Assembly (NCBI RefSeq): GCF_001186125.1 | Contig: NW_014040531.1 | Location: forward strand, 82,469-102,468 | Length of the DNA stretch: 20,000 nucleotides | Direction of reading: 5' to 3' | Source of the DNA: Sphaeroforma arctica JP610 | Taxonomy: Eukaryota | Part shown: in pieces, positions 4,701 to 7,700 of the stretch | Layout: every line of letters begins with the position of its first letter | Numbering within the stretch: position 1 is the stretch's first letter | Program-made: the position numbers and the translations under genes | The notes under the pieces: model-generated | Seen by the model: the letters and a program-made list of their open reading frames with translations, nothing else | What the model was told of the DNA's origin: nothing | Databases searched by the model: none

Positions 4701-7700
4701 AATCTAGTCGGTCGGTCGCACTTTTATGTACACGAGAGCTTTATATTGATACAAAGACAACTGGGTCTGACACGGACAAATGAAAATATTTAGACGATGT
4801 GACCCAATTCTGAAAGCAACACAGCAAATTCATCAAACAAAACTCGAAATTTTCGACTTCATTACCTTCAACACAATCTTCTTCATTTCCGGATCGGGCG
4901 ATTGGAACTCCCGAATCAATACAATCATCACTTCTCGTGTGTAGTAGTTGGCGTGGTCCTCACTCATCAGCGGAATGATGTATCCGATAGCCTTCAAAAA
5001 CGCAGCCAAACCTGTTGCAAATTATAACATGACGCGATACAAAGAAGGTTACACAAGAGGATAAATGTTTAGCCCGATACGTTATTGTTTAGGGCAATAC
5101 GTATCACAGCGACGAAAAAACGGCTTGATAGGAGCATCACAGAATCAATCATAGGTTGAGGTATGAAATCAAATAGCATGGATGGTGTAGTGAACGCATT
5201 ACGGTCATCAGCAAGAAGCCTACAAGCGCTCCATCGTCGACAACGGCAAGCGAACGGAAGTCCTGCAAATCGTCTCCGACCGCGCGTTCAGGACTCAGAT
5301 TCTTTTGAAGCCTGAGCCCCACGGATGAGAGTACATACTATTTCGGCCTATTTGCAGACCTTTCGATTTTGGATTATGCCCCATCGAGTGCAATGCTCTA
5401 TGAGGACACAGACAACACTGCAGGGTCTTTTCGCCAACTACTTATTAACGAACACACACAGTATACTCTGATAGCTCCAAAGGGCCCAGGAAACTGATAA
5501 ACTAGCACACGTACGAACCTTTTCCGTGATGTTGTCGGATACCCCTCCACAGTGGCAGCAGCACAGAATCAAACGATTCTATACCATATGGTGTTGCGGC
5601 CTCTGCCAGCGCCGCAAGGGCTAACGCACAGATGGTACGACACTGCAGAAGGAGAACAAAAGAATGCGCCAGAGTATCAGTATAAGCAAGCAGTGGACCC
5701 TAACTGTACTGAATGTCCACAAAGTATAATCACACCGTTCTGTGGCGAGTTGGACGGTGATTCGAAACAGAACGAAAGCCTCTACTACATAAGCAAAGGT
5801 GCGAGCAGTATACACGTATAAGGGGTTGGTTGGATGAGGTCATATCGGTATGGTACGAGAATCTTAGAGATACGGGAACATGTAAAGCACAAGCAACAAA
5901 TGATAAGCGTTTAGGCCACACAAGGTAACTAATGGAACAAGTTTGAATATATACCACTCCCTGTACATCGATTGCAAGACACACTTTATCAGGCATACAC
6001 GCACACAAGTAATATGATACCACACACAAGTACGCCAATCCTCATAGAGGGTCTTCGACCGTAGAAGATTTACGCTCCATAGTAACCACCGTAGTACAGG
6101 TGACGGGGGTGAACGTACCTTCTGCTGCTCGTCTACTAGACCCATCTCTATAATCTCCACCAGACTCTTCAGATGAGGCAGCACCGCACAACCCATCAGG
6201 ATGGCAATCTGCTGACAGATCTTGATACCTGAGCACAGCAAAAACGAAGTTACTCAACGTACGGCTTGGAGTGCGCAAAAAATACACGAGTTGCGACAGC
6301 ACTGCACAGCTTTAGGAAAGTGGCGAGCAGGGGCAGTGGTCTAATATTTCGATCCAATGCAATTGCAACAATGACGAATAAAGTCTATTGAATGCAATTG
6401 CAACAAAGACGAATAAAGTCTATTAAATGCAATTGCAACAAAGACGAATAAAGTCTATTAAATACAATTGCAACAAAGACGAATAAGGTCTATTGAATGC
6501 AATTGCAACAAAGACGAAAAAAGTCTATTGAATGCAATTGCAACAAAGACGAATAATGTCTATTGAATGCAACTGCAACAAAGACGAATAATGTCTATTA
6601 AAATGCAATTGCATCAAAGACGAAAAAGGTCTATTGAATGCAATTGCAACAAAGACGAATAATGTCTATTGAATGCAACTGCAACAAAGACGAATAAAGT
6701 CTATTAAAATGCAATTGCAACAAAGACGAATAAAGTCTATTAATGCAATTGCAACGAAGACGAATAATGTCTATTGAATGCAATTGCAACAAAGACGGAT
6801 AAAGTCTATTGAATGCAATTGCAACAAAGACGAATAAAGTCTATTGACAACAGCACAGGCCACCTCAACGAGGGCTATTTCCCGAGTAGATCCTCCCAAT
6901 CATTGCAACAAAATGACATAAACGTTTCACACTGCTACGGCTATCGAAACAACTGGCTGAGGACTGTCCGTTCTGTCGACCCCACCCTCAAACAGTTGTA
7001 GTCACACATTTACGGCTGACAGGAGGTGTCTGCCGCCATCAACATATACACCCACACGCACCGCTACACACAATACATGCCAATGCCGCACAGATAAGCT
7101 GCAACACAACATACACGTACAAACATTTACGTGCAACGCATTCTCATGCCACTTGGACGCGCCCACTTACCTGTGTGTCTCGCCTGCCAACTCTTCTTAC
7201 TCTTGCACACCGCTTTGAGGAAAGGCAACAGTGTGGGGATGCCCAGTGCCGAGGCCACTACGGCAAAGGCTCGGGCCGTGGTGTTTCGCACGTATTCATC
7301 GGGATTATCAATATCTGACGAAACGTATTGGATTGTATAGAACCATTAGGGCCAAGCTTGCTCACATATGTTCATAATATTATGGATAGCTAGCAGAATG
7401 GGCAGCGCGACTTGTTACAGAAGGCACAAATATGTCCGGTGGTACTTCACACGTATCAATCAGTCTATGCAACTTGTGATTCAGGGCGCAGATCATGTCC
7501 GTAGCAACGCGCTGGAGAATAGTAGAGACGAGTAGAAAGGAACGAATATGAAGCGGGAGGCACAGCACCGCACAGACATCATTTGCAAGTACTTTGAAGA
7601 ATACAAAAAAATCTCATTCATCGGTTATATATATATATATATACACGCACACACACGCATACACATATATATATCATACACACATAAATGCATACCTACA

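What the first reader, a model, noticed from the sequence alone, without database searches (positions are those of the whole stretch)
7438..7505. Intron 12 contains an intron-less copy of the exon 12|13 junction
Seen (- strand): GCTACGGACATGATC-TGCGCCCTG, then 25 nt, then ATACGTGTGAAGTACCAC. The mRNA reads GCCACAATGATT..TGCGCCCTG|, then 19 nt, then ATACGTGCGAAACACCAC. In the genome these two anchors are about 530 nt apart, but in the echo they are at near-spliced spacing. This is one of the clearest junction-spanning cases, and it includes a CGA>TGA change typical of decay.
Basis: seen in the sequence. Interest (0 to 1): 0.75.

Follow-up and report, generated by a model that had tools for sequence, protein, structure and literature searches.

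The report
Fossil exon marks a moved intron
Inside one intron of a splicing-factor gene from a single-celled relative of animals lies a decayed copy of the neighbouring coding sequence behind an unused splice signal; it is likely the stranded start of an older exon, left behind when an intron position found in animals moved 40 bases, and probably not a reverse-transcribed insert.

Summary
The window holds SF3B1; one exon peptide is identical to Sphaeroforma arctica SARC_00771. Intron 12 (7826-7315) is spliced in two RNA-type runs and intact in DNA contigs. The echo is real but faint: shuffle p=0.0015-0.0025 with transition-aware scoring, 0.05-0.11 with standard scoring; the exon-12 side alone p=0.008. 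It spans about 7511-7351 (mRNA -38 to +129) and starts behind an unused acceptor ranked 4 of 414 intronic AGs. That start matches K568|A569, 40 nt upstream of today's junction. There 55 of 120 fragments from other eukaryotes break; none breaks at the intron-12 site. This gene lacks that intron. So the echo probably crosses today's junction because it predates it: an old exon start stranded when the intron was relocated by local duplication plus loss of the old intron. Not shown: that ichthyosporean ancestors had the old intron. Intron 8 has a stronger exon copy that does not provably cross its junction. The scan noted fossil duplicated exons in other genomes, nothing at this locus.

The parts
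7827..7953 (-). SF3B1 exon 12 (I540 to P581 plus 1 nt). K568|A569 lies between 7867 and 7866 and has no intron here
   Evidence: gene model; RNA contigs; offset -40
7315..7826 (-). intron 12, GT-AG, 512 nt, phase 1 in the D582 codon
   Evidence: spliced in runs X17 and X20; unspliced in X11 and X14 except the skipped repeat 7619-7741; 7236-7580 also covered by X16
7171..7314 (-). SF3B1 exon 13
7512..7545 (-). unused acceptor-like site (pyrimidine tract plus AG at 7513-7512) directly before the echo; likely the old 3' splice site
   Evidence: rank 4 of 414 intronic AGs, stronger than 19 of 22 real acceptors; best register -39 to -35
7315..7360 (-). 3' end of intron 12: weak third copy of mRNA about -36 to 0, in register with the used acceptor; 36-nt spacer after the echo
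   Evidence: p=0.006 among 1137 positions, uncorrected
7753..7814 (-). possible decayed copy of the start of exon 12 (mRNA -133 to -69); marginal
   Evidence: 39/64 identities, 0 of 88 and 0 of 193 controls; shuffle p=0.025-0.125, HMM not significant at 67 of 300
7619..7750 (.). TA/TG microsatellite tract inside intron 12, with donor-like motifs at 7703 and 7695 (uninformative in such a repeat)
10060..10146 (-). comparison case: decayed copy of exon 8 in intron 8 (shorter copy at 10295-10264; the 99-nt array 9696-10049 carries the exon-8 end)
   Evidence: 36-38 bits, 0 of 28 controls; codon-position asymmetry p=0.001-0.035; continuation into exon 9 not significant

Best explanation
The echo is a decayed copy of SF3B1 coding sequence that starts behind an unused splice acceptor, and it is likely the stranded start of an older exon, left when an intron at K568|A569 was likely replaced by today's intron 12, 40 nt downstream. 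Shown here: intron 12 is spliced; the echo and the unused acceptor are present; this gene has no intron at K568|A569, where many other eukaryote fragments have one; no fragment has one at P581|D582. Inferred history: (1) the ancestor had exon A | old intron | exon B, with exon B starting at A569. (2) A tandem duplication of about 165 nt (-36 to +129, 55 codons) doubled the start of exon B. (3) The first 40 nt of exon B were joined to exon A without the old intron, most likely by copying from spliced RNA or cDNA, otherwise by duplication and precise deletion. (4) A new donor after P581 and a new acceptor at the same coding position in the downstream copy restored the same protein. (5) The old acceptor and old exon start became intronic and decayed neutrally. 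On this reading the working exon 12 is the piece that lost an intron, and the echo is the older genomic piece. The order of steps 2-4 is not resolved. The echo most likely has no function today.
For: Anchored at the unused acceptor, the best start among all mRNA positions is -39 to -35. The score at -40 (13.4 bits) is reached by 0 of 3323 distant positions, and 0 of 358 distant windows for the 40 strongest decoy acceptors reach 12 bits. Chance of a site this strong in an 11-nt window is 0.004, or 0.036 for one of median real strength. External data collected afterwards put an intron at exactly -40: 55 of 120 short fragments end LAK|V and 4 start Q|AAGL; 51 run through RP-DID and none breaks there. 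The two longer fragments with the break are closest to an annelid and a mollusc. Several other intron sites of this gene are shared with stored fragments, including 539, 629, 666, 707, 756 and 809. The 36-nt spacer and the in-register 3' end fit a -36 to +129 tandem unit. Introns under about 50 nt apart rarely coexist (PMC2891723, passages). The Sphaeroforma+Creolimax branch had heavy intron turnover, about 311 gains and 640 losses in 342 genes (PMC5560861, supplement 8). Local tandem duplication is common in these introns.
Against: The old intron is shown only in animal-like fragments; no ichthyosporean or other non-animal gene with it was available, and 28 of 120 fragments run through the site without a break. 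The anchor at the acceptor was chosen after seeing the echo. The echo is only about 55% identical and is not significant with blastn-like scoring. Codon-position asymmetry is in the expected direction but not significant (p=0.08-0.27). The 30 nt between the acceptor and the end of the 9-nt anchor need about 10 nt of deletions to match 40 nt. The predicted fossil of exon A is marginal, and a crude two-part score barely separates intron 12 from intron 10 (125 vs 123). No branch-point-like motif lies before the unused acceptor, but 12 of 22 real acceptors lack one too. The path needs several events, with intermediate alleles of an essential gene that must stay viable.
Confidence: 0.55

Rival explanations
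1. Intron 12 arose by multi-copy tandem duplication of intron-less coding DNA (Rogers model, three or more copies). The middle copy crosses the junction by construction, and the acceptor-like site at -40 is chance.
For: The intron's 3' end matches the exon-12 end in register (p=0.006); the same signal appears in introns 2 (p=0.0009) and 8 (p=0.018), Fisher p=0.016 over 22 introns. Multi-copy cases are known in fission yeasts (PMC3629103, passages). The site looks young.
Against: No AG|GT proto-splice site: the junction reads TG|AT. The 5' end of the intron does not match the exon-13 start (p=0.17; Fisher p=0.16 over 22 introns). It does not explain why the copy starts at the animal intron site behind a top-1% acceptor.
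Confidence: 0.2
2. One reading: a processed mRNA/cDNA fragment was inserted into an already existing intron 12.
For: The copy crosses the junction in spliced context. The possible 5' piece (7814-7753) scores higher when the exon-11 end is included (93 vs 75), which would cross the widely shared 11|12 site.
Against: The copy is local, same-strand and collinear. It starts behind an acceptor at an old intron site. No poly(A) follows 7351. No joined DNA copy appears in DNA contigs X11, X14 or X16. The exon-11-like letters also read as a donor consensus plus a worn acceptor.
Confidence: 0.1
3. The similarity is a chance alignment noticed by eye among 22 introns.
For: p=0.05-0.11 with standard scoring; blastn E=5.2 for the best anchor; HMM controls of other introns exceed 9 bits.
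Against: p=0.0005-0.0035 for the downstream part under three scoring schemes, 0 of 44 other-intron windows, HMM 0 of 300 shuffles; coincidence with an acceptor and an externally defined intron site.
Confidence: 0.08
4. The unused acceptor is kept as a minor alternative 3' splice site that adds 197 nt with an early stop, tuning SF3B1 by nonsense-mediated decay. This is compatible with the best explanation as an add-on.
For: The site scores above 19 of 22 real acceptors although the sequence behind it has decayed. Its use would give a stop 16 codons later.
Against: Only the skipped form appears in 2 of 2 RNA-type contigs (contigs drop rare forms). Two or three other intronic AGs in this gene score as high. 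A stop is expected in any intronic stretch.
Confidence: 0.07

Closest known systems
Near intron pairs / intron sliding (Lehmann et al. 2010, PMC2891723, passages; Rogozin et al. 2012, PMC3488318, passages)
   Same: An older intron site is missing and a new one lies a short way off in conserved coding sequence.
   Different: Distance is 40 nt with a phase change (0 to 1), so stepwise in-frame sliding does not fit. In the 31 Drosophila pairs no intron-to-exon similarity was found; here a decayed exon copy and a candidate old acceptor survive.
[quoted passage not shown]
   Same: Intron sequence derives from local coding DNA. As in potato, the duplicated piece crosses an old intron-exon boundary and carries an old acceptor.
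   Different: No AG|GT proto-splice site. The old acceptor is abandoned rather than reused, and the net result is replacement of an intron rather than addition.
Pseudogenic duplicated exons (Morais and Harrison 2009, PMC2718932, abstract and outline; Ivanov and Pervouchine 2022, PMC9013439, abstract and outline)
   Same: A frameshifted, stop-containing exon copy in the neighbouring intron, skipped in the mRNA.
   Different: Its boundaries match an exon of a different, probably older gene structure, not a present exon.
Processed pseudogene / retrocopy fragment (general knowledge, recalled)
   Same: Crosses a present exon junction without the intron.
   Different: Local and collinear, begins behind an acceptor at an old intron site, no poly(A).

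Membership tests
Processed (cDNA) insertion | crosses an exon junction without the intron | tested here: met
   p=0.008; spliced context 1.0 vs genomic -5.0 bits
Processed (cDNA) insertion | the crossed intron is older than the copy | tested here: inconclusive
   0 of 51 fragments spanning the site break there, which suggests a young site; no close outgroup available
Processed (cDNA) insertion | no parental intron sequence or splice signal attached | tested here: not met
   starts behind an acceptor ranked 4 of 414, at the K568|A569 site
Processed (cDNA) insertion | poly(A) tail | tested here: not met
   no A-run after 7351; decay could have erased one
Tandem-duplication intron gain (Rogers) | AG|GT proto-splice site at the junction | tested here: not met
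   the junction reads TG|AT
Tandem-duplication intron gain (Rogers) | intron 3' end resembles the upstream exon end in register | tested here: met
   p=0.006 uncorrected, 1137 controls
Tandem-duplication intron gain (Rogers) | intron 5' end resembles the downstream exon start in register | tested here: not met
   p=0.17
Near intron pair / relocated intron | nearby site occupied in other lineages and empty here | tested here: met
   55 of 120 fragments break at K568|A569; this gene does not
Near intron pair / relocated intron | distance under about 50 nt | tested here: met
   40 nt; above the 32-nt cut-off of the final Drosophila set
Near intron pair / relocated intron | distance a multiple of three (stepwise sliding) | tested here: not met
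   40 nt, phase 0 to phase 1
Near intron pair / relocated intron | old site present in the direct ancestor | not testable with these tools
   no ichthyosporean genome held; fetched loci were nearly intron-free; no sister-species DNA was laid
Pseudoexon | homologous to a parent exon, disabled by frameshifts or stops, skipped in mRNA | tested here: met
Pseudoexon | own donor site at its 3' end | tested here: not met
   best GT within the echo scores 2.1, real donors 2.2-12.8
Introner / transposon-derived intron | related copies at other loci | not testable with these tools
   no genome; within the window the echo has no second copy

The most novel reading that the evidence does not exclude
Part of the large intron turnover in Sphaeroforma happened by exon replacement: a short spliced copy of the gene's own transcript lands beside its source, takes over coding, and turns the old exon, old intron and old acceptor into a new intron. 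Loss and gain would then be one event, and introns would keep readable fossils of the previous gene structure. Intron 12 is one case; intron 20 may be a second (strong unused acceptor at 2053 followed by a marginal copy starting at G971, an intron site seen in 1 of 150 stored proteins).
Probability: 0.25. Interest if true: 0.8.

Novelty: new variant of a known kind. Interest (0 to 1): 0.5.

Why it matters
Source sequences of new introns are almost never found, and intron sliding over more than one base has little direct support (PMC3488318, PMC2891723, PMC4974935, passages). The ichthyophonid intron-gain burst is described without a mechanism in the passages read (PMC5560861). If the reading holds, this intron preserves both the old boundary and the old exon, a direct trace of how an intron position was replaced. 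It also gives a simple genome-wide test: look for unused acceptors plus exon echoes at sites where outgroups have an intron and Sphaeroforma does not. It warns that a junction-crossing copy is not by itself evidence of retroposition.

Tried and rejected
Gene-wide echoes: with three scoring methods only introns 8 and 12 beat all their controls; 13, 2, 16 and 17 did not. Intron 8 as a second junction-crossing case: rejected; extension into exon 9 is at control level in 4 of 4 copies (300-526 of 1131 controls as high), and the intron's own 5' start fits as well or better, so an ordinary duplication across the donor suffices. Methylation-type decay: no CpG depletion. Copies of upstream-exon starts at intron 5' ends as a general rule: Fisher p=0.09-0.15, and the intron-21 hit lies in a microsatellite. 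Sister-species introns: run search listed no holder on record as RNA; X22 and X24 laid nothing, X21 one 35-nt piece, X16 the same sequence; X20 gave exons only, with a few substitutions. Intron positions from metagenome loci: 80 loci, nearly all intron-free. Viral and prokaryote collections held no relative. Human exon boundaries in print: not found, so human numbering is recalled only. No paper on this phenomenon in Sphaeroforma turned up in searches (general mechanism searches: 20, 45, 68); subscription journals are not covered. Gao and Lynch 2009 was not held. The per-site intron table of PMC5560861 (fig5-data2) was too large to read and could bear on whether the site is ancestral. Earlier scan notes: nothing for this genome, sequence or organism; one unrelated phage case.

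Full report
Setting. The minus strand carries a 23-exon model of SF3B1 that translates to 1218 aa without a stop. The exon-10 peptide is 100% identical to SARC_00771 of Sphaeroforma arctica. No whole genome was held. Contigs of two RNA-type runs (X17, X20) join exons 8 to 14, including the 512-nt skip from 7314 to 7827. Contigs of X11 and X14 carry the intron and show no joined form. The echo is therefore neither an assembly artefact nor a constitutive exon.

Observation. The two anchors, the spacings (25, 19 and 531 nt) and the C>T change are as reported. Against exons 12+13 the intron scores p=0.106, 0.048, 0.0025 and 0.0015 under four scoring schemes with 2000 shuffles. A codon-aware pair-HMM gives 8.6-9.3 bits, above 28 of 28 controls for this intron but below some controls of other introns. 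The decode runs from about 7516 to 7366 over mRNA -43 to +110, then jumps back to about -35 and ends in register with the used acceptor. The exon-12 side of the copy is supported at p=0.008 (8 of 1131 controls) and prefers the spliced to the genomic context. Identity is highest at codon position 2, but the asymmetry is not significant. I put the chance that the echo is real at about 0.9. The stop codon says nothing about the decay mechanism, since there is no CpG depletion.

How general. Of introns 2-22, only 8 and 12 beat all controls. Intron 8 holds a clear exon-8 copy (36-38 bits; codon asymmetry p=0.001-0.035), and its 99-nt array carries the exon-8 end. Continuation into exon 9 is at control level, and the intron's own start fits as well, so this is best read as duplication across the donor. 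An in-register match between intron 3' end and upstream exon end is seen for introns 2, 12 and 8 (p=0.0009, 0.006, 0.018; Fisher p=0.016 over 22); the matching 5' test is negative (Fisher p=0.16).

The boundary of the echo. Directly before the echo lies a pyrimidine tract and AG (7513-7512). It ranks 4 of 414 intronic AGs and is stronger than 19 of 22 real acceptors. Starting the alignment there, the best register over the whole mRNA is -39 to -35; 0 of 3323 distant positions reach the score at -40, and 0 of 358 distant windows for the 40 best decoy acceptors reach 12 bits, against 15.5 here. This anchor was chosen after seeing the echo. Offset -40 is K568|A569. To learn where other eukaryotes have introns I searched short ORF fragments. 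Of the 120 listed (of 122 found), 55 end in LAK followed by V, the reading of a GT donor, 4 begin with Q before AAGL, the reading of a CAG acceptor, and 28 run through the site. 51 run through RP-DID and none breaks at P581. Two longer fragments with the break are closest to Capitella and Ostrea among 25 named proteins; cluster look-ups gave no organism names. From recall only, the human exon 13|14 boundary is at this site; searches did not confirm it. So this gene lacks an intron widespread in animals and has an unshared one 40 nt downstream: a near intron pair in the sense of PMC2891723 (passages).

Mechanism. The simplest account of a junction-crossing copy that starts at an old acceptor is that it is the old exon start and predates intron 12. 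To reach today's order, the stretch -36 to +129 must have been doubled (the spacer between echo end and exon 13 is 36 nt), and the 40 nt after K568 must have been joined to the upstream exon without the old intron. Copying from spliced RNA or cDNA is the usual route to precise intron loss (PMC3488318, passages). A new donor and a new acceptor at the same coding position then restore the protein. These steps are inferred and their order is open. A copy of the start of exon 12 may sit at 7814-7753 (39/64), which would make the intron a fossil of exon, old intron and exon, but it is marginal (p=0.025-0.125; HMM 67 of 300). Its first letters fit either the exon-11 end or a worn acceptor. A crude two-part score did not separate intron 12 from intron 10.

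A possible second case. In intron 20, the second-strongest unused acceptor (2053) is followed by sequence whose best match over the whole mRNA is at -99 to -102 (8.0 bits, next best elsewhere 7.1). That is G971 phase 1, where P0429 shows a read-through intron (1 of 150 hits; 137 are contiguous there). The intron-20 site itself also appears in 4 fragments. Among 40 decoys, 4 reach 7 bits locally against 9 of 358 distant windows. This is a lead, not support.

Comparison with known cases. Tandem-duplication intron gain is established (PMC3443670, passages; PMC3629103, passages; PMC4974935, part 1 of 5), but the AG|GT site and the 5' signature are missing here. Direct repeats at new introns in Drosophila and Daphnia are short, 4-18 nt (PMC2809761 and PMC4202315, passages), and a mite survey found no source sequences (10.1101/051292, part 1 of 2). 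Pseudoexons are common (PMC2718932 and PMC9013439, abstracts; both papers were pointed to by scan notes), but copy present exons. PMC5560861 (passages, section 13, supplement 8 part 1 of 2) reports heavy gain and loss on the Sphaeroforma+Creolimax branch; no mechanism was given in what I read. Searches found no report of exon fossils in ichthyosporean introns.

Verdict. Observation confirmed at moderate strength; retrocopy reading not favoured. Best reading: fossil of a relocated intron, confidence 0.55, a new variant of a known kind, interest 0.5. It rests on one gene and on animal data for the old site; intron maps of other ichthyosporeans would settle it.

Noticed in passing
window 16200-18060 (+), inside SF3B1 intron 1 (18643-14644): Exon-like pieces of a THO complex subunit 1 gene on the opposite strand (efThoc1 PF11957, E=1e-13 for 16642-16956; two other pieces had no hit). 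An N-gap lies near 18160-18190, so nesting or scaffolding needs checking.
   Followed up: partly
window 2485-1990 (-), intron 20: Strong unused acceptor at 2053 followed by a marginal copy of exon 20 starting near G971, an intron site seen in P0429.
   Followed up: partly
window 10386-9493 (-), intron 8: Two decayed copies of exon 8 and a 99-nt x3.6 array whose unit contains the exon-8 end; one frame stays open for 152 codons.
   Followed up: yes
window 14495-13970 (-), intron 2: 3' end matches the exon-2 end in register (p=0.0009); weak internal matches to exon 2 and across junction 2|3 do not beat controls.
   Followed up: partly
window 13192-13085 (-), intron 4: Unused acceptor followed by a weak match to exon 3 that crosses junction 3|4 (8.4 bits vs 7.1 elsewhere).
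   Followed up: partly
window 6356-6847, 8917-9057, 11609-11771: Young intronic minisatellites: 35 nt x14, 46 nt x3.1 and 32 nt x5.1; the last two abut or include acceptors.
   Followed up: no
window 5642-5640 (-), start of exon 15: Residue 667 is Cys (QQK|CRT) where stored homologue fragments show QQKV; it lies next to the residue equivalent to the human K700 hotspot (recalled).
   Followed up: no
P0002 / SARC_00771: The public model is 865 aa and starts in exon 9; RNA-type contigs extend upstream through exon 8 and beyond, so the annotation is N-terminally truncated.
   Followed up: partly
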